NCBI GenBank assembly: GCA_965261845.1
Contig: OZ253475.1
Coordinates: forward strand, 2,790,152-2,854,151
From: Candidatus Foliamicus sp.
GTDB taxonomy: Bacteria > Pseudomonadota > Gammaproteobacteria > Steroidobacterales > Foliamicaceae
Length of the DNA: 64,000 nt
Direction: 5' to 3'
Position numbers and translations under genes: made by a program. Shown piece by piece: positions 1 through 45,091 of this stretch. Each line of letters begins with the position of its first letter. Position 1 is the stretch's first letter. Below the pieces are notes generated by a model, which was given only the letters and a program-made list of their open reading frames with translations, was not told the origin of the DNA and did not search any database.

Positions 1-2585
1 ACGCTGAAGTCGAGTTCGTCGACATCGGTGTCGGGATCGGTCCAGACTTCGAAGAGCTGCACCACGATGACGACCCTGTCCTGTTCCTGGTCCACCTCGA
101 TCGTGGTCGTGCCCGCCTTGGTCTTCGCATCAGTCTTCCGGCTGACCGACCACCTCGCGGGTGTGTCCTCGTCGGCTTCGTCGTCGGCGATGGTGGATTG
201 ACTGAACGTGGGCGCCTCGTCCGCGGCGTCCTCAAGGTCGAAGGTGATGTCCTTATCGTCCGTCTCGCCTGCGCCGTCCGTCACCGTCACCGTGATGTCA
301 ACTTCGTCGTCATCCTCGAAATCCAGGGGCTTGACCGGTGTCCTTAGATCTTTGCCCTTGTCGTCTACCGCCAGCTCCGCCGCCGACTTGGTGTGAATCT
401 CGTAGTGCACGGAATCTTCGTCCCTGCCCACTTCCATCACCTTCAAGCGATTCTTGACGTTCGTGCCTTCCTGTTTCGCCGTAAAATCGACCTCCAGCAC
501 GCCGTATGGATGCGGCGCGATGGCTACGTCATCGTCGCGGACAGAGAAAGAGGCGACCTTCTGCGAACCGGAGCCTTCCGTGTAATCGAACTCCTCGACG
601 TCACGGATGTCGGGCGTATCGTTGTCCCTGTCATCATCATCGGACAGCGCCACAGCCAGCTTGAAACTGGTCTGCGCCGAATTGTCGCCCTCGTCCGTGG
701 CAGTGACCGTGACCGTGTAGACACCACGTTCCGGCAGCATGTCCGCCTTATTGGTCATCTTTCCGGAGTCGGAAATCTGCAGCCAATCCACGACACTGCC
801 GTCGGAATCGACCACCGAAACGGTGTAGGTCAGGTCGTCGCCATCCTCGTCGGTGAAGGCCGCATCGTCTCCGGTCGTATCCAGAGCAAAGCTCAGCCAG
901 TCGCCGTCGCGCACATCTTCTTCATCCAGGTCGTCGTCTACCGTGACCCACCAGTCGCCGATAGTCTTGAGGGCGACCGGGCCGTCTCCGGCCGCAATGT
1001 CCTTGACCGTGATCTTGATCGACTGCGATATGGAAGCGTTGGTGGGATCCTCGCCTTTACCCGGCGCAGTCACCTGCCGGTCGGTAGCGGTAATCTTCAG
1101 GGTGATTTCGTCGCCTGCCTCGAAGTTCAGGGACGCGTCGTCCTTGAGCTTGAGCTGCCCGTCGGCGGTTACCTCGAACCGGGCATCGGCCTCGCCGTCC
1201 ACCTCGAAGGTGTAATCATGCTGACCGTGCGGATGCCTGGCGTCGTCGTTGTCTTGGACCCTCACCGTTCCGAGCACCGCGCCCTTGGCGTTTTCGTCCA
1301 CCTCGACGGCGGTAACGCGAACCACAACGCCGTCCTTTTCCGTCACCTGCAAATCGAGCCGGCTCGGCGCAGCGTTCTTTGCGTCGACAATCACATCGAA
1401 GGTTGCCTCGGCTGTCATGCCTCCGGCGTCCATCGCGATGATCGACAAGCCGTCAATCGAGTCGGTCATGCCGGCCGGTGACGTGCCGGAAATGGTTCCC
1501 ATGATGGTCTGATCGGCGCCGGAGCCCGCAGTGGTCACCGAGAAGGTCAACCAGCCCGGGGCATTGTCCGAAAGCCGGTAGGTGAGCGTGTCACCGTCGG
1601 GGTCCGTGAACAGCGCCTTGAGGTCCACCGTGGTGGAGTTCTCTTCGCCGCCTGCGAAAACCGCGTCGGCAACACCGGTTTCAGCAACCGAGGGGCCTTC
1701 GTTCACGTCGTTGACCGTGACGGTGACTTCCTCGACGTTCGATACTACGCCAGAGCTGTCGGTGTAGCTCACTGTGAGCATCACCTCACCACCGACCTTC
1801 TCGTAATCGAAGGTGGTGCCTTCCGTCATCGCCAGCCACAGCCCATTCTCGGGATCGAGGATGACCTGGAAGTATTCGGCCATGTCGCCGCCAAGGGTAA
1901 CGGCGTCCGCGCCTTCCTGGTGGGTCGTCGGATCGCCGGCATCGGCGTCCATGACTTCGATCAGCGCAAGAGGCGGACCTCCCTTGCCGTCATGCACCGT
2001 GTTCTCGTCTATGGTCAGGCTCGTGTTGACGTCCTTGACCGGCACAATCTCGTTGTCCCGCACATCGACCGTCGGCGCCTCGTTCACGTCACCGATCGTG
2101 ACGGTGACAGTGTGGGTGGCGGATGCGCCATCGCCACTGGCCGTGATGGTTACGTCAACCGATCCACCATCCTCGCTCTCGAAGTCAAGGCTCATGTCAT
2201 CCTTCAACTTCAAGTTGCCGCCGGCAACGCCGCCGTCAACCTCAAACCGCTTGTCGCCCACCATGATCGAGGTCGCGTTTTCAAACGCTACCGCAACCAG
2301 CGTAGCGCCGTCCATGTTCTCGTCCACCGATGCCGTGGCGTCCGCGGTGATCACCGCCGCCGGTGGAGGTGGAGGCGGAGGCGGAGGCGGAGGCGGAGGC
2401 GGAGGCGGAGGCGGAGGCGGAGGAGGCGTCGGCCGTTGCGAGCCTCCACCCCCGCAGGCGTCCAGCGCGAGCGCCAATGCGGGAATTACAAGAATATCCG
2501 CTCGCGACGGATTCTCCCGACGCTGGCGTATCGCCCCTTCAAGGCGCGCCTGCAAGAGTTTGATTACGATTCCTGACTTAGACAT
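1..2585 (-). CDS. Large cadherin-repeat / dystroglycan-type cadherin-like surface lipoprotein. N-terminal ~861 codons are present and the 3' end lies outside the window.
   Basis: The minus-strand frame is open from the window edge to the ATG at 2585-2583, preceded by AAGGAGG. It is absent from the ORF track because no stop lies in the window. The N-terminus is MSKSGIVIKLLQARLEGAIRQRRENPSRADILVIPALALALDAC-GGGGS (hydrophobic stretch plus Cys). About 24 Pro follow, then repeated ~100-aa modules with cadherin-type signatures (DVNEAPT, VNDVNEGPS, DPDGDTLTYRLSDNAPGWLTFS). Confidence 0.8.
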   Translation of the reverse strand, partial: MSKSGIVIKLLQARLEGAIRQRRENPSRADILVIPALALALDACGGGGSQRPTPPPPPPPPPPPPPPPPPPPPPPAAVITADATASVDENMDGATLVAVAFENATSIMVGDKRFEVDGGVAGGNLKLKDDMSLDFESEDGGSVDVTITASGDGASATHTVTVTIGDVNEAPTVDVRDNEIVPVKDVNTSLTIDENTVHDGKGGPPLALIEVMDADAGDPTTHQEGADAVTLGGDMAEYFQVILDPENGLWLAMTEGTTFDYEKVGGEVMLTVSYTDSSGVVSNVEEVTVTVNDVNEGPSVAETGVADAVFAGGEENSTTVDLKALFTDPDGDTLTYRLSDNAPGWLTFSVTTAGSGADQTIMGTISGTSPAGMTDSIDGLSIIAMDAGGMTAEATFDVIVDAKNAAPSRLDLQVTEKDGVVVRVTAVEVDENAKGAVLGTVRVQDNDDARHPHGQHDYTFEVDGEADARFEVTADGQLKLKDDASLNFEAGDEITLKITATDRQVTAPGKGEDPTNASISQSIKITVKDIAAGDGPVALKTIGDWWVTVDDDLDEEDVRDGDWLSFALDTTGDDAAFTDEDGDDLTYTVSVVDSDGSVVDWLQISDSGKMTNKADMLPERGVYTVTVTATDEGDNSAQTSFKLAVALSDDDDRDNDTPDIRDVEEFDYTEGSGSQKVASFSVRDDDVAIAPHPYGVLEVDFTAKQEGTNVKNRLKVMEVGRDEDSVHYEIHTKSAAELAVDDKGKDLRTPVKPLDFEDDDEVDITVTVTDGAGETDDKDITFDLEDAADEAPTFSQSTIADDEADEDTPARWSVSRKTDAKTKAGTTTIEVDQEQDRVVIVVQLFEVWTDPDTDVDELDFS
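2362..2427. repeat. GGAGGC-type hexanucleotide microsatellite encoding the poly-proline linker of the lipoprotein
   Basis: A run of ggtgga/ggaggc units, with at least 8 perfect ggaggc copies at 2371-2418. Read on the minus strand it gives CCT/CCG Pro codons. Confidence 0.9.
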
Positions 2586-2631
2586 GAGTCTGCCTCCTTA
2601 ACGAGCAGTTCCATTGGTTGAAATAGTCGAT

Positions 2632-2640
2632 CCCCCCCCC
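2632..2640. repeat. C9 (G9 on the coding strand) homopolymer, 47-55 nt upstream of the lipoprotein start codon
   Basis: tccccccccc at 2631-2640. It lies between a perfect TATAAT (minus strand, 2697-2702) and the RBS. Confidence 0.9.
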
Positions 2641-3164
2641 GAACGCACTTGCACCTAAGTGCAGCACTAAAGCCGGCGGCGAACTCCATGGGGCGGATTA
2701 TAGAGCAAATTTTTGCTTAATGCATCATGCCGTCGCACTTGTCATAATTGCAACGCGATGTACGCAAAGGTGAATCCGACCGTCCCCTGAACGGGGCTAG
2801 AGAAAAATTCCAACCAGATTGCCGCTTCACGCGACAGACCGGCATCTCGGTCGAGTTACGATTGCTCTTCCCCCCATTCCCTAATTCGTCGACTCACAGC
2901 ACGCAAAGGGATCACTAATATGTAGCGATCAAGATTGTACACGCATCGCGCCACGCGGTAACGCACGATGTCGGCAACAGCCCAATGAGGCCGGCAACAT
3001 GTGCGGCACCGTGCAGGTCACCGCCAGATCGCGCAACTCGATATCGCGCTGGGGCAAACGCAACGCGGCAGGGTAATCCGATGTCCTGGTCGACTTGGCC
3101 TGCCCCAAAAGTCGATTGAGACACGTCGATAGCCATTGCATCAGCGAGAAAGTTCAACCTCAAG

Positions 3165-3246
3165 CGGCTTATCCCCGCTGGCGCGGGGGAACACACGAGC
3201 TTGTTACCAAGCAAGGGCCTATCCCCGCTTGCGCGGGGGCAATCAC
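3165..3246 (-). CRISPR. Two-repeat type I-E mini-array (degenerate repeat, ~20-nt spacer, canonical repeat)
   Basis: Minus-strand read: TAA(cas6e), 16 nt, GTGATTGCCCCCGCGCAAGCGGGGATAGGCCC, TTGCTTGGTAACAAGCTCGT, GTGTTCCCCCGCGCCAGCGGGGATAAGCCG. The distal repeat is almost the canonical I-E repeat (E. coli GAGTTCCCCGCGCCAGCGGGGATAAACCG). The proximal repeat keeps the CCCCGC/GCGGGG stem. No third repeat was seen in the next ~500 nt. Confidence 0.7.
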
Positions 3247-3262
3247 GCGATACCCGCAACAG

Positions 3263-4042
3263 TTAGACCTGCACAGGCGCGCGCTTCGGCGGACGCAGGA
3301 GAAGCATGCCATACCCGTACGCGCGGTGTCGACCGACCCCGCACCGCAGGAGACTAGCAAAGGCGGTTGGGTCATTCACTGTCAGCACGCCGTGAAACAC
3401 CGCCTCCGGGCCTTCTATCATTTGATTTCCTCGCGCCACGCACACTCGCTGAAAGCGAGCCAGCCGGCTGGTGACCCGGTCCAATTCGGCCGCTTTGCGT
3501 AATTGCTCATCGAGCCAGTCAAGATATATGTCCTGGCGCCCGATCTTGGCGTCCGGATTCCGCAGTACGGCCAGCCAGAACGCATCGAGTTCCGTAGATC
3601 CGGCTCCGGGTTTTTCTCCCACTACGCTCCCGTTGCGCGTTTCAATCGGCCGGCTGACCCTGCGCACCGGCCGTGCCTGCACATCAAACCCCAGCCGCTG
3701 CCCTTCGCGCCATTGGTTTGGCATGGGTTTGGTGGTGATCCGGGCCGCGTCCAGCACGGACAAGTGTTCGGGCCACGCAAAGTTCGCTGCCGCTTCACGC
3801 AACTCCGTACCGTCCTTCCTGGAGTATGCGTACAGGTTCCCTGCCGAACTTCTTGGCGGCACCATCAGACGAAACGGGCTCAGGACCTGACGACCGAAGA
3901 CCTCCGTAAGCAGGTGGTGGAGCGCGCGGCCGCGGTCCAAGCGCGCGTGCGCGTTGCCTCGCCGTACCCAGCCGCGCTCGCCCACCCAGCGAGCCAACTG
4001 GTCTAGTCGAACAGGAACGCGAACGAGAAAGAAGCCCTTCAC
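3263..4042 (-). CDS. cas6e: Cas6e (CasE/Cse3) crRNA endoribonuclease
   Basis: The C-terminus GVLTVNDPTAFASLLRCGVGRHRAYGYGMLLLRP matches the Cas6e signature (E. coli GVLTINDAPALIDLVQQGIGPAKSMGCGLLSL). The preferred start is the GTG at 4042, which overlaps the cas5e stop (GTGA). The track ATG at 4096 is an alternative. Confidence 0.85.
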   Translation of the reverse strand: MKGFFLVRVPVRLDQLARWVGERGWVRRGNAHARLDRGRALHHLLTEVFGRQVLSPFRLMVPPRSSAGNLYAYSRKDGTELREAAANFAWPEHLSVLDAARITTKPMPNQWREGQRLGFDVQARPVRRVSRPIETRNGSVVGEKPGAGSTELDAFWLAVLRNPDAKIGRQDIYLDWLDEQLRKAAELDRVTSRLARFQRVCVARGNQMIEGPEAVFHGVLTVNDPTAFASLLRCGVGRHRAYGYGMLLLRPPKRAPVQV

Positions 4043-4761
4043 GGCACCCAACCCTCCACGACGCGTCGGCTGCCACTGTGCAATCCAGTGCGCCATTTGC
4101 GCAGATCCGCCCGTTCAACAAGCCGGTCCACATGCGCCCCACGCTCCGGCCCCTCGCCCACCGGCCACAGCGCCCGCCTGCGAGCTGACGATGATTGGTC
4201 CGCCGCGACGGCACAAAGCGCCGCATAGGCGTTGGGTGCCTCCACCCAACGTTCCGATTCCGGCGCTACCAGAGGCCGCGACGGCAGGCATGTCTTGCGC
4301 CCGACAAACAGGGGGCGGGCCGGGCAATCGAAGGCGTGGGCCAACGCCTCTATCGTTGGTGGCACATTGATCTGCTCCAGCCGCAATACAACGCCAACCG
4401 CCTCATCGGCAAGGTATTCGCGCCTGCGCCGGTGCGGACTGGCATAGGTTCGCCAGCCGCCTGTACGTTGCTCGGGCGCGGCCCGCGTAGTCCAGGCTGT
4501 GTCCCGACTGTTCAGTTCCGCGTTTTGCATGTCGGTCAGCAAGAAACCCTCGCGCTGCTTGTAGGCAGCGAACACGAGCCGGTCTTGCAAGACCTGATGC
4601 TGCGCTCCATCGCACCAATGCCACCCCAGCGCGTTGCCGATGAGTCCGGTGATCATGGAGGCAGCCGGAAAATCCCGAATCGGGCGCACCTGGTCCACGG
4701 CGATTCCTCCGAACGCCATCAGCGGGGCCTCGAGACGCAAGACCAGCCAATGGTGGTTCAT
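4039..4761 (-). CDS. cas5e: Cas5e (CasD)
   Basis: The N-terminus MNHHWLVLRLEAPLMAFGGIAVDQVRPIRDFPAASMITGLIGNALG is the typical Cas5e motif. Its ATG overlaps the cas7e stop (ATGA at 4758-4761). Confidence 0.85.
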   Translation of the reverse strand: MNHHWLVLRLEAPLMAFGGIAVDQVRPIRDFPAASMITGLIGNALGWHWCDGAQHQVLQDRLVFAAYKQREGFLLTDMQNAELNSRDTAWTTRAAPEQRTGGWRTYASPHRRRREYLADEAVGVVLRLEQINVPPTIEALAHAFDCPARPLFVGRKTCLPSRPLVAPESERWVEAPNAYAALCAVAADQSSSARRRALWPVGEGPERGAHVDRLVERADLRKWRTGLHSGSRRVVEGWVP

Positions 4762-5948
4762 TGCGGCAACTGCTGCGGCAAACCCCGGGCCCAAGACGCG
4801 AGATCCGCCAAAGACCCGGGTTGGACATCGGCGAAACCTACATCAGCGATCGAAAGTATGCGGCGCTGCTCACCGGTAGCGTAAACCGCGTCCAGTTTAT
4901 GCAAGTGGGCCGCCAGAACCTCGGCGGCCGCGTCCAGTTCTGGCGCGCACGGCGTGCGGAACGCCTCGGCCAGGCTGCGCGGCTGCCGGTCGCCGGCCTC
5001 CAGCAACATCAGCGACGCGCGCGAATAGGGTGCCGTCGAGCCCAATTTGGCGCCCGGTGAGACTTCGGCAATGAGATGAACCAGATTGTAGAGCACCTTC
5101 CCGGTCAGTGGGGCGCTGGACAGTTCTTCCCCCAGGTTGGCCGCCAGTGACGGGATGTCCACCACGACATACCCGTAGAACAGGCTCGAAGTCAATTCAG
5201 TTTCCTGGATGGTGGCGGCGCTCGATCCGGCTTCAAGCAGATCATCCACCGCCGTCAAGTAGTCGGTTTCCACCTCTTCCGCGTGAACCGAAAACGAATG
5301 CGCGACATGCAGCGGCCCGGTCATGTTGGCGGCGGAGTCCGACGTCACCAGGCGACCGAACAGCGCCGCCGTCAGCCCTGCGGGGAGCTGCGTGCTTTCG
5401 CGCATGGCTCTTATGTTGGCCCGAAACGATTTTTGAGGACTGCCTGTCCCGTCGCCGTCCACCCATCGCTTCGCCAACTTGAATGCGTTTTCCGCGTTTC
5501 CGTCTGCCTGGGCCATCAACCGCGCGAATTCCGTGCCCAGCCATTCAATCTCCGGCACTCCAAACAACAGCGGTTGGCGCTTGTTTTCGAACCTGGACTT
5601 CTCGCCGTGCTCTGTTGGCGCATCCTCGCGATTGAATCCATAAATGGCGAACTGAAACCACGGCGCGAGCGCTTCGACGACAGCATGGTCCCAACGCACG
5701 CCGCTTGAGCGAGCCTGCTTGATGATCTTGTCCACGAGATAGCGCGAACGAACGGACGCCACGCCAATCTTCTCCAGCGCGCGCGGATCTTCCGCCATGC
5801 GCCAATGCCGTTTCAGGCATTGCGAGGCAACGCGCGTGCGCGAGACTCCGCCGTAGGGCAGGCGCTTCGCCAGCCCATCCTCGTCGCGGTTCAGCAAGAC
5901 CCCTGTATAGGGACTTAGGGTGTGGACTTGAAGAAAGCGAGGTCTCAT
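4758..5948 (-). CDS. cas7e: Cas7e (CasC/Cse4) Cascade backbone subunit
   Basis: MRPRFLQVHTLSPYTGVLLNRDEDGLAKRLPYGGVSRTRVASQCLKRHWR matches the Cas7e N-terminal signature (FLQIH.L....NLNRDD.G.PK...fGG..R.RiSSQ.LKR). An AAGGGGA RBS is present. The ATG overlaps the upstream stop (ATGA at 5945-5948). Confidence 0.9.
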   Translation of the reverse strand: MRPRFLQVHTLSPYTGVLLNRDEDGLAKRLPYGGVSRTRVASQCLKRHWRMAEDPRALEKIGVASVRSRYLVDKIIKQARSSGVRWDHAVVEALAPWFQFAIYGFNREDAPTEHGEKSRFENKRQPLLFGVPEIEWLGTEFARLMAQADGNAENAFKLAKRWVDGDGTGSPQKSFRANIRAMRESTQLPAGLTAALFGRLVTSDSAANMTGPLHVAHSFSVHAEEVETDYLTAVDDLLEAGSSAATIQETELTSSLFYGYVVVDIPSLAANLGEELSSAPLTGKVLYNLVHLIAEVSPGAKLGSTAPYSRASLMLLEAGDRQPRSLAEAFRTPCAPELDAAAEVLAAHLHKLDAVYATGEQRRILSIADVGFADVQPGSLADLASWARGLPQQLPQ

Positions 5949-8059
5949 AAAACAATTCCCCTTCTGTGTTCGGCCGCGGACTGGGAAAGCGCCCGGTCCA
6001 AGCAACGATAGTATGGCTGGGCAATTCTCCGCCCGTCCTGCGGCGTAAGCAGAATTGCGACAATATCGGTGACATCGACTCCGGAGCCGCGCGGCATGCA
6101 CGCACTCAGCCTGCGTGCCGCCCGGTGAAGATGGCCGGCGCGCACTTGTCCTCGGGCCACAAGAAGTTGCAGCAACCTCGTCTCGCTAAGAAAAGGCCGT
6201 GCGCTGTGTTGTTCTCGTTCCAGCCAATCGCTATCGCCGCCGTCACAAAATACGGTCCCCAGCCGACGCTGCGGATCATGAAGGGGCGGACGCTCGGCGG
6301 GGTTGCCCTTCGGCGTAAGGATCGCCAAGGTCCGCACGATCGCATTCCATTCTTCTTCGCGGTCTCTTCGCCCGATCGTATCCGGGTGTCGAGCTGCGAG
6401 AGACTCAAACGCCGGCCCGCCCGTGGCGACCGGCATCCGGCGCAGCTGCGCCAATTCGTCGGCACTCATACGCTGCAGCCAGGCCGCCGCGGCGCACGCT
6501 GCATCATCTGTTCGTCTACCATTCAGCTCCTCCGATACAGACAATACAGACAATTCAGGAAATTGCTTGCGCAACCCTTTGCGGAACTGCCTGTGCGCAC
6601 GTGCTTCCGCACGATGCCGTAACGCCGAGGGACAAGGCATGGAAGAGAGACCAGTTTCAAACTCGATCCGTGCAGCGTGCCGAAGATCTTCCAAGAAGGC
6701 CTTTCGGACGCCATCGAACGACCTATTGCCGCCTTCCTGATGCGCCGCCACCCGTTTCCAAAGCGCCTCGAAGAACAACCGATCCGCGCGCCGATCAAAG
6801 CGGCTGCATGCGGTTTGCGCGTACTCGTAGTGTTTGCTTTCACTCCGCCGCCAGTCGCCCCCGGCCGCTACCGCCGCCAAAGCGTTTCTCAACAAGTTGT
6901 CAAACGCTTTGATTTCCTCCATCTGTTGCTTCGCACACTCAGCAGCGGTAGCCGACTCGTAGAACGCGCGCCCGGGCACCGGTACATGGCGTGCGTGAAA
7001 GCCCTCCGTCTTGCGCTTCCCACGCCCAAAAGCCTCCGCTACCAAGACCATGTCTTCGGACTCATGCGGGCCATATTCCGCCAGGATCGGTCGTTTCCAA
7101 TTGCCGGAAAACAGCAGCTCGTTCAGCCGAACATAAGTAAAGCCTCGTCTTCCCAGCGTAAGACTCTTGCCCTCCTTGTTCTCAACCGGGATCCAGGGAT
7201 CGCCGACGTTGCCCTTGAAAGGCCCTCCATCGGTGCGCGGTCTGCCTGAAGTGCTTCGGCGAGCTGTGATTCGCACACGTGCGTCCTCCAGCCGGACCCG
7301 TCGGCTCGTCTCAATGAACCACGGGTCCAGGTTCGGAACCTGCAATTGCTCCCCTTCCGGCCAGGGGAGACACCAGAGCAGCGCTGGGCCGCCGACAGCG
7401 CCCACACCAGAAGTCCGCGAGCCATGCAGCAGCCGGCGAACGTCTCGCGCCCACCACGCCGAAGGGCACACCGTCGTATCAAGCGCCGAGCCGGGCGCCA
7501 ATCCCAGGAGCGGGCGGCTGGATAGGCCGCTGCTCATCCGCACGATCCCATAATTGCCCTGGCCCGAATAGCCGGCCATCGTCTGCAACGAGACCAAGGC
7601 ATACAGCCAGTCCTCTGCCTCGCTCGCATAGGCGACTGCGTGCTTCTCATCGAAGTTCTTGGATGTACTTAGCATGTCCAAGTTGTCGGGAGTCGGCACC
7701 GGCTTCCATTTGAGGCCGCCAGGGTCCGGAGGCTGCAGGAAGGCTGGGCGCTCTGGATTCTCTACGATCAAACACCACGGCTCATCGTGGTCGAAATCGG
7801 TCGTCAATCCGCGCAAAAAGGCCGCCCAAGTCTCGCCATCCTCCGGCAGGCGATCCTGGTCTGCGTTCCACAAAGCCAGCGCCGCCAATTGCACCAGGAA
7901 CACGTGCCAAGCCGCACGCTGATGCGGCCGCAGGGAAACAAATCCCGCTACTTCCTGTCGCGCCATCGCCGCGAACAACCCCGGCAGCGTTAGGGCTTTT
8001 TCTTGCCTGGACCATCCGGACGCGGTAATCAGGGACTCCACCAATAGATTGTGTTTCAT
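5945..8059 (-). CDS. cas8e: Cas8e (Cse1/CasA) fused in-frame to Cas11e (Cse2/CasB), ~704 aa
   Basis: The N-terminus MKHNLLVESLI..LTLPGLFAAM.. and a length of ~515 aa fit Cse1. The C-terminal ~180 aa fit Cse2: LAQLRRMPVATGGPAFESLAARHP..EEEWNAIVRTLAIL..LSETRLLQLLVARGQVRAGHLHRAARRLS..VDVTDIVAILL..IAQPYY. It is a single uninterrupted ORF. The preferred start is the ATG at 8059 (AAGGA 8 nt upstream) rather than the track TTG at 8080. Confidence 0.8.
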   Translation of the reverse strand: MKHNLLVESLITASGWSRQEKALTLPGLFAAMARQEVAGFVSLRPHQRAAWHVFLVQLAALALWNADQDRLPEDGETWAAFLRGLTTDFDHDEPWCLIVENPERPAFLQPPDPGGLKWKPVPTPDNLDMLSTSKNFDEKHAVAYASEAEDWLYALVSLQTMAGYSGQGNYGIVRMSSGLSSRPLLGLAPGSALDTTVCPSAWWARDVRRLLHGSRTSGVGAVGGPALLWCLPWPEGEQLQVPNLDPWFIETSRRVRLEDARVRITARRSTSGRPRTDGGPFKGNVGDPWIPVENKEGKSLTLGRRGFTYVRLNELLFSGNWKRPILAEYGPHESEDMVLVAEAFGRGKRKTEGFHARHVPVPGRAFYESATAAECAKQQMEEIKAFDNLLRNALAAVAAGGDWRRSESKHYEYAQTACSRFDRRADRLFFEALWKRVAAHQEGGNRSFDGVRKAFLEDLRHAARIEFETGLSSMPCPSALRHRAEARAHRQFRKGLRKQFPELSVLSVSEELNGRRTDDAACAAAAWLQRMSADELAQLRRMPVATGGPAFESLAARHPDTIGRRDREEEWNAIVRTLAILTPKGNPAERPPLHDPQRRLGTVFCDGGDSDWLEREQHSARPFLSETRLLQLLVARGQVRAGHLHRAARRLSACMPRGSGVDVTDIVAILLTPQDGRRIAQPYYRCLDRALSQSAAEHRRGIVL

Positions 8060-8115
8060 CGCATCAATCCTTCGCGGCAATACTGGCAGTGTTTCCCTTC
8101 AATTGATACAACCGC

Positions 8116-8913
8116 CTACTGCACCAGCACGCGGGCCGTAACCGTTTCCGTTTGCGGCAGCAGGCACAAGTCGTCCTTGCAGGTCTGGTAAGTAACCTCA
8201 GCGCTCACCTCGTACAACCCGGGCAAGGTGCCGTCCATCGCTTCGACCGATTGCCCCCAGGTCACTGCCTTACCCATGTGAACGTCGTATGAGCCCTTGA
8301 AGCGAAACGGCGGGCGCTTGACCGCGCCTACAGTCTCCAATCCGTCCGGCACGCTGAAGCTCACGCTTGTCTCTTTCATGCCCTGCCCTACATTCCTGCC
8401 GGTTGCGGCATAGATGTACCAGCCGTCCTGCATGTCGAGGTGAACCTTGACGTCCGAGCTTCTGCCCATCTCCAGCACTACCATCGGGTCCACCCGGACC
8501 GAAACCGGTGACAACGGCTGATCCGGCGAATCAGACTCTGCGAGATCCGGTTCGCTGCCGCCCGGCATGTCTTCGACCGTTGCGGTATTGGCGGCAATCA
8601 TCGGTTCTGCCACATTGTTCTTGCTTCCCAACATCACATAAACGCGGCCCTGATGGCGCATCGTGAGCCAATAGCCCTTGCCCATTTCATACAGTCTGCC
8701 GATTGTTTCGTCCCAGTAAGGCTGCTGCTCCACCGCAAACTTTTCCAATTCTTCGTCACTGGGCATTTCGAAAGTCTCGCCTTCCTGCTCGCGTCGGGCA
8801 ACTATTTCCGCATACATGGTGCGATATGTTTCCGCCGTCGGGCGTGGACGCGGGGGATATAAGCCCGGGTCCTTGCCAGCGCTCTCCACCTTATTTACGG
8901 GAACTATATGCAT
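8116..8913 (-). CDS. Protein with a C-terminal DsbD N-terminal (alpha) domain-like fold, co-oriented with the cas operon. It may be 5'-truncated by IS5.
   Basis: The C-terminal ~125 aa fit the DsbD-alpha pattern (..GWHIY.....vsYQgC.d..C.pP): HLDMQDGWYIYA...VTYQTCKDDLCLLPQTETV. There is no signal peptide. The reading frame stays open upstream of the ATG into the IS5 end, which is 15 nt away. Confidence 0.5.
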   Translation of the reverse strand: MHIVPVNKVESAGKDPGLYPPRPRPTAETYRTMYAEIVARREQEGETFEMPSDEELEKFAVEQQPYWDETIGRLYEMGKGYWLTMRHQGRVYVMLGSKNNVAEPMIAANTATVEDMPGGSEPDLAESDSPDQPLSPVSVRVDPMVVLEMGRSSDVKVHLDMQDGWYIYAATGRNVGQGMKETSVSFSVPDGLETVGAVKRPPFRFKGSYDVHMGKAVTWGQSVEAMDGTLPGLYEVSAEVTYQTCKDDLCLLPQTETVTARVLVQ

Positions 8914-8927
8914 GGCTAGACAGATAG

Positions 8928-10098
8928 GGAAGGTCTGAATAACGGCCTACATGGGCCGTGATGCGGTTAGCGCCCTCGCCGTTTGCGGTGAGATCCCGGT
9001 ATTGGCGCCGATTCGACGCAAAAACGGGGGTTTGCGGGGCGTTCTCGACGCCCGCTGCGGTTTCCACAGACACCAACCCCATGTCAGGCGGCCGCATAGC
9101 GGCCAGCGATGAGAAGATTGGTGAAGCCAAGCAGCATCGCGATGCGCTGCGTGTTCTTCGCCAAGCCCCTGTAGCGCACCTTGGAATAGCCGAAGTGGCG
9201 CTTCACATACAGGAACGGGTGCTCCACCTTCGCCCGAATCGACGCTTTGCGCTTCTCAGCCGCTTCCTCGGCACTCGCCTTGTCGAGCCGCCGGCGCCGG
9301 CCCGGCCTCATGGCCACCTGCCAGTCCACTTCCCGACCCTGGTGCTCCGGACGCTTGTGCACGCCCTGGTAGCCGGCGTCGCCTCGCACCTCGGATTCGC
9401 CGCCGTGCAATACCAAGTGCGCGTGCGTCACGTCCGCGCCGTTCGCCGCCGTCGTCGCCAACCCGTGTGTCAGACCCGACTGCGAGTCCACACCGATGTG
9501 CGCCTTCATCCCGAAGTACCAACGGTTGCCCTTCTTCGTGGGGTGCATTTCCGGGTCCCGCTCACCCTTCTTGTTCTTCGTCGACGAGGGCGCGTCAATG
9601 AGGCTCGCGTCCACGATCGTGCCCGTCTTGAGCCGGTGACCTTGCAACGCCAGGTGCGCGTTGATCTCCCCGAACAACTCCTCCCCCAGACCGTGACGCT
9701 CCAGCAGATGCCGAAAGTTCAGGATCGTCGTCTCGTCCGGCAGCGCACCCGTCAGCCGCAACCCCGCAAAGCGACGCACCGACTCCACCTCATACAACAG
9801 GTCCTCCATCCCCGGATCGCTTACGTTGTAGAACAACTGCACGCAGTGAACTCGAAGCATCGTTCCCAGCGGATACGGCCGCCGACCCCGTCCCGCCTTC
9901 GGATAAAACGGCTCAATGCGCCGCTCAAGCCGCTCCCAGGGAATCAGCCGGTCCATCTTCGCCAGAAACTTCTCGCGGCGCGTGCGCCGCTTCTTCAAAT
10001 CGTGCTCCAACTCCGAAAACGTCGCCTGTCCCATCTCAACAACCTCACCGCAAAAACGATACCGCTATTATCCCAGAAAGGACTTGATCAGACCTTCC
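8928..10098 (-). mobile_element. IS5-family insertion sequence (~1.17 kb)
   Basis: Terminal inverted repeats GGAAGGTCTGA at 8928 and (reverse complement) ending at 10098. It carries a single DDE transposase. The flanking tetranucleotides ATAG and TTAG are not identical. Confidence 0.85.
9084..10034 (-). CDS. IS5-family DDE transposase
   Basis: 316 aa. FLAKMDRLIPWERLERRIEPFYPKAGRGRRPYPLGTMLRVHCVQLFYNVSDPGMEDLLYE... and YRGLAKNTQRIAMLLGFTNL are typical of the IS5 group. Confidence 0.9.
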   Translation of the reverse strand: MGQATFSELEHDLKKRRTRREKFLAKMDRLIPWERLERRIEPFYPKAGRGRRPYPLGTMLRVHCVQLFYNVSDPGMEDLLYEVESVRRFAGLRLTGALPDETTILNFRHLLERHGLGEELFGEINAHLALQGHRLKTGTIVDASLIDAPSSTKNKKGERDPEMHPTKKGNRWYFGMKAHIGVDSQSGLTHGLATTAANGADVTHAHLVLHGGESEVRGDAGYQGVHKRPEHQGREVDWQVAMRPGRRRRLDKASAEEAAEKRKASIRAKVEHPFLYVKRHFGYSKVRYRGLAKNTQRIAMLLGFTNLLIAGRYAAA

Positions 10099-10756: not shown

Positions 10757-12268
10757 ATGTTGATAGTGGAGACGATTGCGCGGATCCGTCGGGATCATCT
10801 GGATCGGGGGGTGCCGATCAGGCGGATTGCCCGTGAGTTGAAGTTGTCGAGGAACACGGTTCGCAAAGCGATCCGTGGGGATGTAGCGGCGTTTGGATAC
10901 GAGCGCACGGTGCAGCCGCTTCCGAAGCTGGGTCCATGGGTCGGGGAGCTGGAGCGGTTAATGGAGGCCAACGAGGGCAAGCGCCGGCGGGAGCGTTTGT
11001 CGCTGCTGCGGATTTTTGAGCAGTTACAGGGACTGGGCTATGAGGGCGGATACGATGCGGTGCGTCGCTATGCGATGTCGTGGCGGTGGCGGCGTTCGGG
11101 GTCGGGTTCGCAAGTGTATGTGCCGTTGATTTTCGATCCGGGCGAGGCCTACCAGTTTGACTGGAGCCACGAGTATGCGGTGGTGGCGGGCACGACGACG
11201 CGAGTCAAGGCGGCGCACCTGCGGTTGTGCCACAGTCGGTTGTTCCTGGTTCAGATTTTTCCTCGGGAAAGCCAGGAGATGGTGTTTGAGGCGCACGAGC
11301 GCAGCTTCCGGTTCTTCGGTGGGGTATGCCGGCGCGGCATCTACGACAACATGAAGACGGCGGTGCAGACGGTGTTCGTTGGCAAGGCGCGCGCCTACAA
11401 CCGGCGATTCGTGGAGATGTGTTCGCATCATCTGATTGAGCCTGTGGCCTGCACGCCCGGGGCGGGTTGGGAGAAGGGCCAGGTGGAGAGCCAGGTGGGC
11501 CACGTGCGCGGGCGTATGTTCGTGCCGCGCCCGCGCGGGCGCAGTTACGCGGAGATCAACGCGTGGCTGAAGGATCAGTGCATCCGTGAGGCGAAGCGGC
11601 GGCGTCATCCCACGATCAAGGACAAGACGGTGTGGGAAGTTTACGAGCAAGAGCAGCCGTATCTGATGGCTTACCGGGGTCCGTTCGACGGGTTCCACGC
11701 GGTGGAGGCGGCGGTATCGAAGACGTGTCTGGTGTGTTTCGATCGCAATCAGTACAGCGTGGAGTCGCGCGCGGTGGGCCGCACGGTGGATGTGTGCGCA
11801 TATGCTGATCGGATCGTGATCCGCCAGAACGGCGAGACGGTGGGGGAGCATCCGCGCTGCTTTGAGCGTAACAAGGTGGTGTACAACCCGTGGCATTACG
11901 TGCCGATCCTCAAGCGCAAGCCCGGCGCGCTGAGGAATGGGGCGCCGTTCAAGGACTGGGCGCTGCCGGACGCGCTGGGGCGTGTACGGGCTGGATTGGG
12001 CCGTCATGACGACGGCGATCGGCAAGTGGTGAAGATCCTCGGTGCGGTGCTGGAGGATGGCCTGGAGGCGGTGGAGGCGGCCTGCGCCGAAGCCCTGGCC
12101 GAAGGCGCCTGCAGCCACGATGTGGTGCTCAATATCCTGGCGCGCCGGCGCCAGCCCGCGCCCCCGGCGCCGATCCCGACACCGGTGGATCTGTGGTTGC
12201 GCCTGGAGCCGACGGCCGACTGCGCTCGTTACGAGGGCTTGATGGAGGTGCGTCGTGGAGCGGCATGA
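10757..12268 (+). CDS. istA: IS21-family transposase IstA
   Basis: 503 aa. N-terminal HTH (IRRIARELKLSRNTVRKAIR), then AYQFDWSHE...CHSRLFLVQIFPRESQEMVFEAH..FFGGVCRRGIYDNMKTAV and the rest of the IstA core. Confidence 0.9.
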   Translation: MLIVETIARIRRDHLDRGVPIRRIARELKLSRNTVRKAIRGDVAAFGYERTVQPLPKLGPWVGELERLMEANEGKRRRERLSLLRIFEQLQGLGYEGGYDAVRRYAMSWRWRRSGSGSQVYVPLIFDPGEAYQFDWSHEYAVVAGTTTRVKAAHLRLCHSRLFLVQIFPRESQEMVFEAHERSFRFFGGVCRRGIYDNMKTAVQTVFVGKARAYNRRFVEMCSHHLIEPVACTPGAGWEKGQVESQVGHVRGRMFVPRPRGRSYAEINAWLKDQCIREAKRRRHPTIKDKTVWEVYEQEQPYLMAYRGPFDGFHAVEAAVSKTCLVCFDRNQYSVESRAVGRTVDVCAYADRIVIRQNGETVGEHPRCFERNKVVYNPWHYVPILKRKPGALRNGAPFKDWALPDALGRVRAGLGRHDDGDRQVVKILGAVLEDGLEAVEAACAEALAEGACSHDVVLNILARRRQPAPPAPIPTPVDLWLRLEPTADCARYEGLMEVRRGAA

Positions 12269-12842
12269 GGTACTGGACATGATGCGCGCGCTGCGTCTGT
12301 CGGGCATGCGCACGGTGTTCGACGAGATCGTGGCCGTGGCGATCAAGCGCGGTCACCCGGTCCAGCGCGTCATCGGCGAGTTGCTCAAGGCGGAGATCGC
12401 CGACAAGAAGGCGCGTTCGATCAAGTACCAGATGACCATCGCCAAGCTGCCGACGGTCAAGGAGCTGGCCGACTTTGACTTCGCCTCAAGCCCGGTCAAC
12501 GAACTGCTGGTGCGGGACCTGGCCACCGGCGCGTTCCTGGGCGACAAACGCAACCTCGTGCTGGTCGGCGGAACGGGAACCGGCAAGACGCATCTGAGCG
12601 TGGCCATCGCCCGGGCCTGCATCCGCAACGGCGCCCGGGCACGCTGCTACAACGTCGTGGACCTGGTCAATCACCTCGATGCCGAGGCGCGCGACGGCCG
12701 CCAGGGCCGGACCGCCAACCAACTGGGCCGACGTGATTTGATCATCCTCGACTTATGTTGCGTACGCGGTTATGTGGAGTTGGCGGTGCCCGGCAAGTGT
12801 TTTGTCGGGGGCAAAGCATGAACCAACTCCACATAATATTCG

Positions 12843-14850: not shown

Positions 14851-15007
14851 GACCGTGCTCCTCGATACCGGTGAGGCGGGGCACCGGAAGCGCCACGGCG
14901 CGCAAGGCCTTGATATCCAAACGCAGATAGACGCACGTGCTCTCCAGGCTACGATGGCCGAGAAGATCCCCGATCGTAAGCGTTCGGTTACCGGGTGATT
15001 TGCTGGC

Positions 15008-44978: not shown

Positions 44979-45091
44979 GGACGGGGTCTCCGGACAACGG
45001 GGGATGGGCGGGCCGGACTCTCGGGACCGCCACCGCTTGCCCGATCCCCCGCCCGGCTCCGCCTCTTCGCGGCGCGGGTTGCAGGAGATCC

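What the first reader, a model, noticed from the sequence alone, without database searches (positions are those of the whole stretch)
3165..3262. Leaderless two-repeat mini-array with the degenerate repeat on the cas-proximal side
The array starts 16 nt after the cas6e stop, so there is no room for a leader or for cas1/cas2. It has only two repeats.

The cas-proximal repeat is the degenerate one (GTGATTGCCCCCGCGCAAGCGGGGATAGGCCC). It keeps an intact Cas6e stem, but its loop and 5'-handle are altered. The distal repeat is canonical (GTGTTCCCCCGCGCCAGCGGGGATAAGCCG).

In ordinary arrays the degenerate repeat is the leader-distal terminal one. Here the single crRNA would carry a variant 5' handle (AUAGGCCC instead of AUAAGCCG) and a canonical 3' hairpin. 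This is reminiscent of the atypical repeats that flank dedicated guides in repurposed systems.
Basis: seen in the sequence. Interest (0 to 1): 0.7.

Follow-up and report, generated by a model that had tools for sequence, protein, structure and literature searches.

The report
Hard-wired guide of a nuclease-less Cascade
The two-repeat mini-array is real: it encodes the single, evolutionarily conserved guide RNA of a type I-E CRISPR complex that has lost its nuclease and memory genes. This complex travels with a giant cell-surface adhesin gene and probably regulates it.

Summary
On the minus strand, 16 nt after the cas6e stop, lie R1 (3246-3215), a 20-nt spacer (3214-3195) and R2 (3194-3165). 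No other repeat copy occurs in the 64 kb window, and there is no leader, cas1, cas2 or cas3.

In this Cas6e family the canonical repeat is GGTTCCCCCGC-N4-GCGGGGATAG(A/G)CC. R1's handle AUAGGCCC is therefore the canonical one, and R2's AUAAGCCG is the deviant.

This is not a fresh deletion scar. Nine divergent loci form one clade with the same layout: cas8e(±cse2)-cas7-cas5-cas6e, the mini-array, then a giant cadherin-like lipoprotein gene. The flanking genes differ between loci.

The cas genes are under purifying selection (dN/dS 0.1-0.4, dS up to about 1.3). The 5' handle, spacer positions 1-5, 7 and 9-11, and the R2 hairpin are conserved. Positions 6, 8 and 12 and the 3' half of the spacer vary.

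The best reading is a CreR/CreA-like regulatory crRNA that is the sole guide of a domesticated Cascade. A site with the inferred PAM and an 8/10 seed match lies within 150 nt upstream of the giant gene in 6 of 9 loci (p<5e-5). Pairing is weak, and the target is unproven.

This is a new variant of a known kind.

The parts
5945..8059 (-). cas8e fused in frame to cse2/cas11. The ORF opens at 8080, and the likely ATG start (MKHNLL...) is at 8059.
   Evidence: NCBIfam casA_cse1 matches the N-terminus and Pfam gives a weak Cse2 match at residues 542-660. It is 66% identical to the L001 Cas8e over 521 aa, and L001 lacks the Cse2 part. tblastn with Cse2 of L010 hits 6454-5990 at 61% identity. The same fusion occurs in L083 (701 aa).
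4758..5948 (-). cas7e
   Evidence: Pfam Cas_CT1975 at 1e-78 and NCBIfam casC at 4e-74. dN/dS is 0.11-0.25 within the clade.
4039..4761 (-). cas5e, with no HNH insertion
   Evidence: NCBIfam casD_Cas5e at 2e-49, covering the whole protein. dN/dS is 0.19-0.31.
3263..4042 (-). cas6e (259 aa, GTG start)
   Evidence: Pfam PF08798 at 2e-30. It is identical to the 259-aa protein P0001. dN/dS is 0.19-0.38. The C-terminal glycine-rich motif aligns to solved Cse3/CasE structures.
3215..3246 (-). R1 (psi-repeat 1). It has a degenerate 5' flank, an intact hairpin CCCCGC-GCAA-GCGGGG, and the canonical 8-nt 5' handle ATAGGCCC.
   Evidence: The handle ATAGRCCC is invariant in 9 orthologous loci.
3195..3214 (-). 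Spacer of 20 nt, TTGCTTGGTAACAAGCTCGT. The seed TTGCT-N-G-K-TAA is conserved, and the 3' half is lineage-specific and partly self-complementary (GCUUG-GUAA-CAAGC).
   Evidence: Alignment of nine loci. Folding and shuffle test, p about 0.03-0.04.
3165..3194 (-). R2 (psi-repeat 2). It is 28/30 identical to the nearest canonical repeat and supplies the 3' hairpin of the crRNA. Its own handle part, ATAAGCCG, is off consensus.
   Evidence: The hairpin CCCCGC-N4-GCGGGG is perfect in all 9 loci with varying loops. The 3' tail is not conserved.
2697..2711 (-). Candidate protospacer A: AAT|TTGCT|C|TATAA|T. It has an AAY PAM and an 8/10 seed match, and it overlaps a TATAAT -10-like box about 105 nt upstream of the giant gene's ATG.
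   Evidence: This is inference, not shown.
2596..2610 (-). Position homologous to the relatives' candidate protospacer, directly 5' of the Shine-Dalgarno sequence. Relatives read AAC|TTGCT..TTAAGGAGG. The window has lost one T (AAC-TGCTCGTTAAGG), which breaks the register with the PAM.
1..2585 (-). 5' part (861 codons, running off the window) of a giant cadherin/He_PIG-repeat lipoprotein gene. It has a strong SD, a conserved 45-aa N-terminus ending in LALALDAC, and a poly-proline linker.
   Evidence: translation; Cadherin 3e-17, He_PIG 1e-9. Orthologues of 1574-2236 aa (split into two ORFs in L092) follow the mini-array in all 9 loci.

Best explanation
**What it is.** The mini-array encodes one hard-wired crRNA-like regulatory guide, of the same kind as CreR/CreA or 'crlRNA'. 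It serves a type I-E Cascade that has lost Cas3, Cas1, Cas2 and the leader. In most sister lineages Cse2/Cas11 is also lost.

**How the RNA is made (inferred).** The unit is read through from the cas operon, since only 16 nt separate it from the cas6e stop and no terminator is found. Cas6e cuts at the base of both hairpins. The product would be 5'-AUAGGCCC-UUGCUUGGUAACAAGCUCGU-GUGUUCCCCCGCGCCAGCGGGG-3'. It carries the family's normal 5' handle from R1 and the normal 3' hairpin from R2.

**What it does (inferred).** With no nuclease present, Cascade can only bind DNA. Only spacer positions 1-5, 7 and 9-11 are conserved. Position 8 alternates G/T, positions 6 and 12 vary, and the 3' half is free in sequence and length. 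The complex is therefore expected to form a short, partial R-loop and act as a transcription regulator, not as an immune effector.

**Most likely target (inferred).** The target is probably the adjacent, co-inherited giant cadherin-like lipoprotein gene. A site with the family's inferred PAM (AAC/AAT) plus TTGCT and 3 of the next 5 pairing positions lies next to its Shine-Dalgarno sequence in the relatives. In this window the site lies on a -10-like box.

**Status of the steps.**
- Shown: the anatomy, conservation, purifying selection, monophyly and linkage to the giant gene.
- Inferred: processing, DNA binding, the identity of the target and the direction of regulation.
For: 1. **Same architecture in nine divergent loci.** The loci are the window, L001, L081, L083, L086, L088, L090, L091 and L092. 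The flanking genes differ between them:
   - hfq-hflXKC-purA-4HBT in L088-L090;
   - P4-type integrases in L083, L086, L091 and L092;
   - Abi/HTH/S24 genes in L001;
   - IS elements and a conjugative element in the window.

   The Cascade, mini-array and giant gene therefore move as one unit.
2. **Monophyly.** The Cas6e proteins of these loci form one clade. The next branches (P0005 = L103, and P0012-14) are complete systems with cas1-cas2.
3. **No nuclease or adaptation genes.** There is no Cas3 or Cas1 in the 64 kb window or within ±10 kb in any of these loci.
4. **Purifying selection.** dN/dS is 0.11-0.38 for cas7, cas5 and cas6, with dS of 0.1-1.3.
5. **Selective conservation within the mini-array.**
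   - The handle ATAGRCCC is invariant.
   - Spacer positions 1-5, 7 and 9-11 are invariant.
   - Positions 6 and 12, the flipped-out bases of I-E crRNA, vary, as does position 8.
   - The spacer 3' half is unalignable between lineages, and spacer length runs from 20 to 30 nt.
   - The R2 hairpin is perfect in all nine loci, with loop changes.
   - R1's 5' flank and R2's 3' tail are free.
6. **Independent PAM inference.** Complete relatives carry CreR-like mini-arrays upstream of cas8e. Their seeds match sites about 180 nt upstream that are preceded by AAC or AAT. The last repeat base, which is PAM-derived in I-E, is mostly C.
7. **Seed match upstream of the giant gene.** An AAY PAM plus a seed match of at least 8/10 occurs within 150 nt upstream of the giant gene's ATG in 6 of 9 loci. 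None of 20,000 random 12-mers (maximum 5) or 20,000 permuted seeds (maximum 4) did as well. Without the PAM requirement the count is 7 of 9, p=0.004.
8. **Cas11 is dispensable for silencing.** Cas11-less E. coli Cascade still silences genes (PMC12235044), which fits the repeated loss of Cse2 here.
Against: - **Weak pairing.** No candidate site pairs at spacer position 7, and none gives the 9 or more contiguous PAM-proximal base pairs used as a criterion for crlRNA targets (10.1101/2024.10.29.618823). E. coli Cascade needs seed positions 1-5 and 7-8.
- **No covariation.** Spacer position 8 varies G/T without matching changes in the target. The target's second segment lies in a linker of variable length.
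- **Gaps in the pattern.** L088 and L090 lack a good site. In the window the homologous site has lost one base.
- **Partly post hoc.** I chose the region and the PAM for the statistical test after seeing the similarity.
- **Incomplete search for cas3.** A cas3 gene or a normal array could exist elsewhere in these 3-Mb genomes, because only ±10 kb (64 kb for the window) was examined.
- **No expression data.**
Confidence: 0.5

Rival explanations
1. The guide is functional, but its real target lies elsewhere in the genome. It could also be a CreTA-type addiction arrangement. In that case the guide keeps a toxic RNA or gene silent, so that cells cannot lose Cascade even after the immune function has gone. 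The resemblance to the giant gene's leader would then be incidental.
For: - The seed is conserved at positions 7 and 9-11, yet no local site pairs at position 7.
- Long-term retention of a nuclease-less Cascade is what an addiction module would produce (Li et al., as summarised in PMC8501985 and PMC9458426).
- A TacA-acetyltransferase toxin-antitoxin pair sits between the mini-array and the giant gene in L089.
- The papers note that low complementarity makes distal targets hard to find (PMC10120712).
Against: - No conserved small ORF or RNA lies between R2 and the giant-gene leader. That stretch varies from about 40 to about 1100 nt, and the short ORFs in it are not conserved.
- No site with a good seed match and PAM occurs near the conserved -10-like boxes, other than those already listed.
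- The association with the giant gene across different genomic contexts, and the p<5e-5 seed/PAM statistic, would both have to be coincidence.
Confidence: 0.25
2. The unit is an inert remnant. A deletion removed cas1-cas2, the leader and most of the array, and the last repeat-spacer-repeat unit merely persists with no function.
For: - More distant relatives have cas1-cas2, a leader and a long array at exactly this position.
- L083 still carries a second unit with a normal 33-nt spacer and a decayed third repeat.
- The window is full of IS elements.
Against: - The state is shared by nine loci that have diverged to a dS of about 1.
- The cas genes have dN/dS of 0.1-0.4.
- Between the window and L088, the handle plus the first 12 spacer nt differ at 2 of 20 positions, whereas the rest of the spacer and the flanks are unalignable between lineages.
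- The degeneration is confined to exactly the repeat halves that are absent from the mature crRNA.
Confidence: 0.08
3. The locus is still part of an immune system. Cas3, Cas1-Cas2 and normal arrays are encoded elsewhere in the genome, and this mini-array is an ordinary CreR that autoregulates the Cascade operon.
For: - Regulatory mini-arrays are reported in about 19% of I-E loci (PMC10120712).
- Complete relatives of this family carry a CreR-like element.
- Only a fraction of each genome could be inspected.
Against: - No seed match occurs in the 450 nt upstream of cas8e in any of the nine loci, and those upstream regions are not homologous to one another.
- The CreR-like element of complete relatives lies upstream of cas8e with a different seed (GRTGTGACTGG) and is absent here.
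- Cse2 has been lost at least three times within the clade, which is unexpected for an interference-competent Cascade.
Confidence: 0.1
4. The two hairpins act only as Cas6e-dependent RNA processing or stability signals. They would separate the cas mRNA from a read-through transcript into the giant gene, and the 'spacer' would have no guide function.
For: - No terminator is predicted between cas6e and the giant gene.
- The unit is co-oriented with both.
- The spacers tend to fold into a small hairpin of their own.
Against: This reading does not explain the invariant 8-nt handle. It also does not explain why the first two 5-nt spacer segments are conserved while positions 6 and 12 vary.
Confidence: 0.05

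Closest known systems
CreR / CreA regulatory mini-CRISPRs (crRNA-like RNAs) of type I systems, including I-E (Liu et al., bioRxiv 10.1101/2023.03.10.532045; Shmakov et al., PMC10120712; Cheng et al., PMC8501985)
   Same: - Two repeat-like sequences flank one spacer-like sequence next to the cas genes.
- psiR1 keeps the part that makes the 5' handle, and psiR2 keeps the part that makes the 3' hairpin.
- Only the PAM-proximal 11 nt or so of the spacer are conserved, with the sixth position free.
- The spacer is non-standard in length and often short.
- The predicted action is Cascade-mediated transcriptional control without cleavage.
- Regulation of non-cas 'cargo' genes has been proposed for I-D mini-arrays.
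   Different: - The described cases sit inside complete immune loci that have cas3, cas1-2 and normal arrays. In I-E they lie between cas3 and cas8e and target the cas8e promoter or a toxin promoter.
- Here the mini-array is the only array. It occupies the position of cas1-cas2 and the array, downstream of cas6e.
- The system has no nuclease or adaptation genes nearby.
- No match to the cas promoter exists.
- The only candidate target precedes a giant adhesin gene and pairs at 8/10 positions with a position-7 mismatch.
Derived subtype I-E variant of Streptomyces: cas5-cas6-cas7-cas8 with a STAND NTPase (Koonin & Makarova, PMC8730458)
   Same: - It is a type I-E-derived Cascade that lacks Cas3 and the adaptation module.
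- Cas11 is not listed for it.
- It is stably linked to one non-cas partner gene.
   Different: - The Streptomyces variant is described as having no array, and its partner is a cytoplasmic STAND NTPase, a predicted cell-death effector.
- Here a conserved one-guide mini-array is present.
- The partner is a secreted or lipid-anchored cadherin-repeat giant protein.
- No STAND gene appears in any locus.
- The hosts are uncultured Gammaproteobacteria (MAGs).
dCas12f-sigmaE RNA-guided transcription systems of Bacteroidetes (Hoffmann et al., PMC12259090)
   Same: It is a nuclease-dead CRISPR effector with a genetically linked, fixed guide that has been exapted for gene regulation.
   Different: - That system is class 2, with a single protein and a sigma-factor partner that activates transcription. 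The guide-target matches there are extensive.
- Here the effector is a class 1 Cascade with no sigma factor, and repression is the more plausible outcome.
Atypical-repeat 'homing' guides of CRISPR-associated transposons (I-F3, I-B, V-K CASTs)
   Same: - The effector lacks a nuclease.
- A dedicated guide is flanked by off-consensus repeats and conserved across relatives.
- The module is found on mobile islands.
   Different: - No tnsA, tnsB, tnsC or tniQ genes are present in any of the loci.
- The islands carry tyrosine integrases or none at all.
- No target was found at island borders.

Membership tests
Canonical type I-E CRISPR-Cas immune system | Cascade genes cas8e, cse2, cas7, cas5 and cas6e | tested here: met
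   Pfam and NCBIfam hits for all five, with cse2 fused to cas8e. Cse2 is absent in 7 of the 9 sister loci.
Canonical type I-E CRISPR-Cas immune system | Cas3 helicase-nuclease encoded with the locus | tested here: not met
   tblastn with Cas3 from two complete relatives gives no hit in the 64 kb window or in L001, L081-L092. The rest of the genome could not be searched.
Canonical type I-E CRISPR-Cas immune system | Adaptation module (cas1, cas2), leader and multi-spacer array | tested here: not met
   There is no Cas1 hit. R1 starts 16 nt after the cas6e stop. There are two repeats only. For contrast, L103 has cas1-cas2, an AT-rich leader of about 60 nt and an array.
CreR/CreA-type regulatory mini-CRISPR (crlRNA) | Two repeat-like elements flanking one spacer-like element beside the cas genes; psiR1 conserved in the handle part and psiR2 in the hairpin part | tested here: met
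   Nine-locus table. The handle ATAGRCCC is invariant, the R2 hairpin is perfect in all nine, and the other repeat halves are degenerate.
CreR/CreA-type regulatory mini-CRISPR (crlRNA) | Only the PAM-proximal part of the spacer is conserved or complementary, with the sixth positions free | tested here: met
   Positions 1-5, 7 and 9-11 are invariant, positions 6, 8 and 12 vary, and positions 13 onward diverge.
CreR/CreA-type regulatory mini-CRISPR (crlRNA) | PAM-flanked partial target (about 9-15 PAM-proximal bp) in the promoter of the effector cas operon (CreR) or of an adjacent toxin (CreA) | tested here: not met
   No seed match lies upstream of cas8e, and no toxin candidate was found. The only PAM-flanked sites precede the giant gene and pair at 8/10 with a position-7 mismatch.
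CreR/CreA-type regulatory mini-CRISPR (crlRNA) | Cas6-dependent maturation and Cascade-dependent repression | not testable with these tools
   This needs small-RNA-seq and reporter assays.
Cas3-less derived I-E variant with STAND NTPase (Streptomyces) | cas5, cas6, cas7 and cas8 without cas3, cas1 or cas2 | tested here: met
Cas3-less derived I-E variant with STAND NTPase (Streptomyces) | Linked STAND NTPase gene and no CRISPR array | tested here: not met
   No STAND/NACHT-type gene appears in the precomputed Pfam lists of any locus, apart from a faint nSTAND3 mark on an IS21 IstB. A mini-array is present.
CRISPR-associated transposon (CAST) homing guide | Tn7-like tnsA/B/C and tniQ genes next to the effector, with the target at a fixed distance from the transposon end | tested here: not met
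   No such genes appear in the gene tables of the loci or among the ORFs scanned in the window.
HNH-Cascade (Cas5-HNH / Cas8-HNH, PMC10910872) | HNH nuclease domain inserted in Cas5 or Cas8 to compensate for the loss of Cas3 | tested here: not met
   Cas5e is 240-251 aa and is fully covered by the Cas5e model. No HNH hit occurs in Cas8e or Cas5e.

The most novel reading that the evidence does not exclude
A type I-E Cascade has been domesticated into a one-guide, RNA-programmed transcription factor, a natural CRISPRi. Its only job would be to control a giant cadherin-like surface adhesin. The two components are inherited and mobilised together as a module in uncultured marine Gammaproteobacteria. 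Weak, partial seed pairing next to the adhesin's ribosome-binding site or -10 box would give tunable rather than absolute repression.
Probability: 0.35. Interest if true: 0.8.

Novelty: new variant of a known kind. Interest (0 to 1): 0.62.

Why it matters
If confirmed, this would be a class 1 example of a CRISPR effector that has fully left immunity. It has no nuclease, no adaptation genes and a single fixed guide, yet it has stayed under purifying selection for a long time.

That would place it beside tracr-L/scaRNA, CreR/CreA and the dCas12f-sigma systems as a case of RNA-guided gene control.

It also offers practical leads:
- A naturally minimised I-E Cascade, in several lineages without Cas11 and with spacers of 20-30 nt. 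This is of interest for compact CRISPRi tools.
- A concrete, testable link between a CRISPR-derived regulator and a host-interaction (adhesin) gene of uncultured, probably marine bacteria.

Tried and rejected
- **Full-length or seed targets of the spacer.** I searched the 64 kb window and all orthologous loci. Nothing exceeded 14/20, or a 9-nt run, which is chance level.
- **Target at the cas8e promoter (classical CreR).** None was found, and the upstream regions are not homologous between loci.
- **Exact spacer matches in viral contigs.** The window spacer, the L086-type spacer and the second spacer of L083 gave 0 hits.
- **Handle plus seed pattern in JGI metagenome contigs.** This returned only the already known L083 contig, plus what look like chance hits without repeat hairpins.
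- **Known RNA family between the array and the giant gene.** There is no Rfam hit. The alignment fold of the leader shows only two short hairpins with little covariation.
- **Palindromic ancestral target CTTGCTGGTTAACCAGCAAG.** It is not present in any locus.
- **L025 and L072.** These are more distant Cas1-less loci that also have a mini-array after cas6e. They have different spacers, no giant gene and no local target, so they are uninformative.
- **Conserved inverted copy of the seed just past the giant gene's stop codon in relatives.** It reads AAG/GAG|TTGCT(T/G)GTTGG. It is part of a conserved 3'-UTR hairpin before the terminator, and I judged it not separable from chance.
- **Search with the giant protein's N-terminus.** It returned only six short fragments.
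- **Catalytic histidine of Cas6e.** The profile aligned only the C-terminal motif to solved structures. Conservation of the histidine (invariant ALHHLL motif) therefore rests on my own reading.
Full report
**1. What is in the sequence**

On the minus strand the window carries a type I-E effector operon:
- cas8e fused to cse2 (8059-5945);
- cas7e (5948-4758);
- cas5e (4761-4039);
- cas6e (4042-3263).

All were identified by Pfam and NCBIfam.

Sixteen nucleotides after the cas6e stop come three elements:
- R1, GTGATTGCCCCCGCGCAAGCGGGGATAGGCCC (3246-3215);
- a 20-nt spacer, TTGCTTGGTAACAAGCTCGT (3214-3195);
- R2, GTGTTCCCCCGCGCCAGCGGGGATAAGCCG (3194-3165).

No further copy of the repeat exists in the 64 kb, and chance expectation for R2 is zero. 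tblastn with Cas3 and Cas1 of complete relatives finds nothing in the window.

About 580 nt further downstream on the same strand, a strong Shine-Dalgarno sequence precedes the start (2585) of a very large gene that runs off the window. The product has a conserved N-terminus ending in a lipobox-like LALALDAC, a poly-proline linker, and He_PIG and cadherin repeats.

**2. Which repeat is canonical**

I collected 80 loci encoding relatives of this unusually long Cas6e (259 aa). Most have cas1 directly after cas6e, then cas2 and a long array.

Their repeats read GGTTCCCCCGC-N4-GCGGGGATAGACC(C), or ...ATAGGCC(C) in several lineages. The closest complete system (L103, Cas6e 66% identical) has GGGTTCCCCCGCGCCAGCGGGGATAGGCC(G) after an AT-rich leader of about 60 nt.

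Measured against this consensus:
- R2 is 28/30 identical. Its two deviations are one base at the 5' end and one in the handle (ATAAGCC instead of ATAGGCC).
- R1 has a 2-nt insertion and a loop change in its 5' part, but carries the family's normal handle, ATAGGCCC.

The mature crRNA would have a canonical 5' handle and a canonical 3' hairpin.

**3. It is not a recent scar**

The nearest Cas6e relatives (62-70% identity) come from eight further distinct loci: L001, L081, L083, L086, L088, L090, L091 and L092. Duplicate assemblies are L082, L084, L085, L087 and L089.

All eight show the same layout: cas8e(±cse2)-cas7-cas5-cas6e, a two-repeat unit a few dozen nt or less after cas6e (overlapping its stop in L091), a gap of 0.4-1.5 kb, and an orthologue of the giant lipoprotein gene, 1574-2236 aa where it is a single complete ORF.

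None has Cas3 or Cas1 within ±10 kb. The flanks differ between loci:
- hfq-hflX-hflKC-purA-4HBT in L088, L089 and L090;
- one or two P4-type integrases in L083, L086, L091 and L092;
- Abi, HTH and S24-peptidase genes in L001;
- IS5, IS21, a trio of tyrosine recombinases and F-type transfer genes in the window.

In a neighbour-joining tree of Cas6e these loci form one clade. The next branches are complete systems.

Within the clade, cas7, cas5 and cas6 have dN/dS of 0.11-0.38 at dS of 0.1-1.3. The nuclease-less state therefore arose once, is old, and the Cascade proteins have stayed under purifying selection.

Cse2 is retained, fused to Cas8e, only in the window and in L083. On the tree it has been lost at least three times. 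Published work shows that Cas11 is dispensable for Cascade-mediated silencing in E. coli (PMC12235044).

**4. Anatomy of conservation in the mini-array**

Across the nine loci:
- The 8-nt handle ATAG(A/G)CCC is invariant.
- Spacer positions 1-5 (TTGCT), 7 (G) and 9-11 (TAA) are invariant.
- Position 6 is G or T and position 12 is C, A or T. These are the two positions that are flipped out and unpaired in I-E crRNA, according to established structural knowledge of E. coli Cascade.
- Position 8 is G or T.
- From position 13 on, the spacers of different lineages cannot be aligned, and their length ranges from 20 to 30 nt.
- The R2 hairpin CCCCGC-N4-GCGGGG is perfect in all nine loci with five different loops, while its 3' tail is free.
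- R1's 5' flank is free, and its hairpin carries a T-T mismatch in two loci.

Between the window and L088, the handle plus the first 12 spacer nt differ at 2 of 20 positions, although synonymous sites of the neighbouring genes are near saturation.

Selection thus acts on exactly those parts that would make up one crRNA, and within the spacer on the PAM-proximal seed. This is the signature described for CreA/CreR regulatory mini-CRISPRs (10.1101/2023.03.10.532045; PMC10120712).

L083 still has a second unit with a normal 33-nt spacer and a decayed third repeat. This shows that the mini-array descends from an ordinary array.

**5. Search for the target**

Neither the full spacer nor its seed has a convincing match in the window, in the orthologous loci, upstream of cas8e, or in viral contigs.

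Complete relatives carry a separate CreR-like mini-array immediately upstream of cas8e:
- psiR1 is TTCCCGAAA..TCGGGATAGACCC.
- The seed is approximately GRTGTGACTGG.
- psiR2 is GATTCCCCAT..ATGGGG.

In four loci, 9-10 of the 10 scored PAM-proximal positions of this seed match a site about 180 nt upstream that is preceded by AAC or AAT. The last repeat base, which derives from the PAM in I-E adaptation, is predominantly C. Together these findings suggest an AAC/AAT PAM for the family.

Sites with that PAM followed by TTGCT are rare, at 0-2 per locus. In six loci one lies immediately 5' of the giant gene's Shine-Dalgarno sequence, for example AAC|TTGCT|G|TTTTA|AGGAGG in L086. In the window an AAT|TTGCT|C|TATAA|T site (2711-2697) overlaps a conserved TATAAT box about 105 nt upstream of the ATG.

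The statistics for a PAM plus a seed match of at least 8/10 within 150 nt upstream of the ATG are:
- Observed in six of nine loci.
- The best of 20,000 random 12-mers, scored on the same homologous sequences, reached five loci.
- The best of 20,000 permutations of the real seeds reached four loci.
- Without the PAM requirement the count is seven of nine loci (p=0.004).
- The summed match score has p=0.003.

The similarity is therefore unlikely to be chance, but it is weak:
- Position 7 is never matched.
- The second segment pairs at 3 of 5 positions.
- There is no covariation with the G/T polymorphism at position 8.
- L088 and L090 lack a good site.
- The window's homologous site has lost one base.

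**6. Interpretation**

The best-supported account is this. Read-through from the cas operon and Cas6e processing yield a single crRNA-like RNA. This RNA arms a nuclease-less Cascade, and the complex binds DNA through a short seed and regulates transcription.

The adjacent giant adhesin gene is the most likely target, for two reasons:
- It is the only gene that always accompanies the module.
- Its leader carries the only PAM-flanked seed matches.

I put about 0.5 on this as a whole. Higher, about 0.75-0.8, is my confidence that the guide is functional and selected. Lower, about 0.35-0.4, is my confidence that the giant gene is the target.

The rivals are:
- a trans target or a CreTA-like addiction circuit;
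- an ordinary CreR in a genome that keeps cas3 elsewhere;
- a pure RNA-processing signal;
- an inert relic.

The relic reading is hard to reconcile with sections 3 and 4.

**7. Relation to what is known**

Regulatory mini-arrays in I-E loci are known and common, and regulation of cargo genes has been proposed for I-D (PMC10120712). A Cas3-less I-E derivative (cas5-8) linked to a STAND NTPase and lacking an array is known from Streptomyces (PMC8730458). Nuclease-dead Cas12f with a fixed guide drives transcription in Bacteroidetes (PMC12259090).

This module shares features with each of these systems but fits none of them:
- It has a guide but no immune context.
- It has no STAND, Tn7 or HNH component.
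- Its partner is a surface protein.

I found no description of it in the searched literature. I therefore classify it as a new variant of a known kind.

**8. Limits**

- There are no expression or binding data.
- Genomes were inspected only around the loci.
- The PAM is inferred from four regulatory targets and from repeat ends.
- The region and PAM used in the statistical tests were chosen after the similarity had been noticed.

Noticed in passing
L002, L005, L006, L008-L011, L013-L015, L018, L023, L027-L029, L036, L037, L043, L047, L052, L062, each about 30-60 nt upstream of cas8e (locus coordinates about 5850-6060; about 4850-4990 in L005): Complete I-E systems of this Cas6e family carry a conserved CreR-like mini-array just upstream of cas8e. 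In most of them psiR1 is TTCCCGAAA..TCGGGATAGACCC, the spacer is about 30 nt, and psiR2 is GATTCCCCAT..ATGGGG. In L009, L023, L027 and L029 its seed matches a site about 180 nt upstream that is preceded by AAC or AAT.
   Followed up: partly
window 2560-2645 (minus strand) and the homologous regions of L001 and L081-L092: From about -25 to +60 around the giant gene's ATG the nucleotide sequence is almost invariant across loci, synonymous positions included. The neighbouring cas genes, by contrast, have dS of 0.5-1.3. This suggests an RNA- or DNA-level element at the translation start.
   Followed up: partly
window 3195-3214; the spacers of L001 and L081: The lineage-specific 3' half of the spacer tends to be complementary to the conserved 5' seed. 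The window has GCUUG-GUAA-CAAGC, L081 has a 9-bp hairpin, and L001 has CUU.CUGG/CCAGAAG. Shuffle p is 0.03-0.05 for each. The effect is absent in L083 and L091. It could mean that the ancestral target was palindromic, or that the seed is masked in the free RNA.
   Followed up: partly
L001 17455-17520, L081 16243-16300, L083 15292-15350, L088 17313-17370, L090 18057-18115, L091 12437-12500: The giant gene's 3' UTR is conserved. It holds a small hairpin GCAAC-N4-GTTGC followed by a strong intrinsic terminator. On the opposite strand in L001, L083 and L091 it reads AAG/GAG/GCG|TTGCT T GTTGG, an inverted partial copy of the guide seed (matching positions 1-5 and 7-9); L081, L088 and L090 carry weaker versions.
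   Followed up: partly
window 5945-8059 (minus strand); L083 3784-5889: Cas8e and Cse2/Cas11 are fused into one ORF (about 700 aa) in the window and in L083. The Cse2 part is absent from L001, L081 and the L086-L092 group, which implies at least three independent losses.
   Followed up: yes
L102 (a second assembly with identical cas6e) versus window 2480-3300: The two sequences are 100% identical through the mini-array and about 470 nt downstream of it. L102 then has an insertion element (DDE_Tnp_1 with a DruA-like domain) just upstream of the TATAAT box of the giant gene. This is strain-level IS disruption of the adhesin's upstream region.
   Followed up: partly
window about 21000-50400: An F-type conjugative transfer gene set lies here: TraC 30216-32915, TraH 39881-41509, TraG_N 41635-44532, coupling protein 44957-47317 and TrwC relaxase 47317-50340. 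The Cascade and adhesin module therefore lies next to, or on, an integrative conjugative element.
   Followed up: no
window 12843-19008 (minus strand): Three tyrosine recombinase genes in the same orientation (12843-14030, 13864-14850, 17872-19008) resemble a 'recombinase in trio' element. They are interrupted by an IS66-family transposase (15886-17847) and a DruA-domain ORF (15008-15997). IS21 (10757-12821, with a truncated istB) and an IS5-type transposase (9084-10034) lie between them and the cas operon.
   Followed up: no
window 2363-2440 (minus-strand codons of the giant gene): A run of 24 proline codons is built from CCTCCGCCT-type tandem units. The length of this linker differs between orthologues, from about 12 to more than 28 prolines, so it is a likely slippage-prone tract.
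   Followed up: no
L089 5260-6143: A TacA-like antitoxin and GNAT acetyltransferase toxin pair is inserted between the mini-array and the giant gene in one relative.
   Followed up: no
window 8116-8913 (minus strand): An ORF of 265 aa with a DsbD_N-like domain (9e-7) lies 35 nt upstream of the cas8e ORF on the same strand. It is not found at this position in any relative.
   Followed up: no
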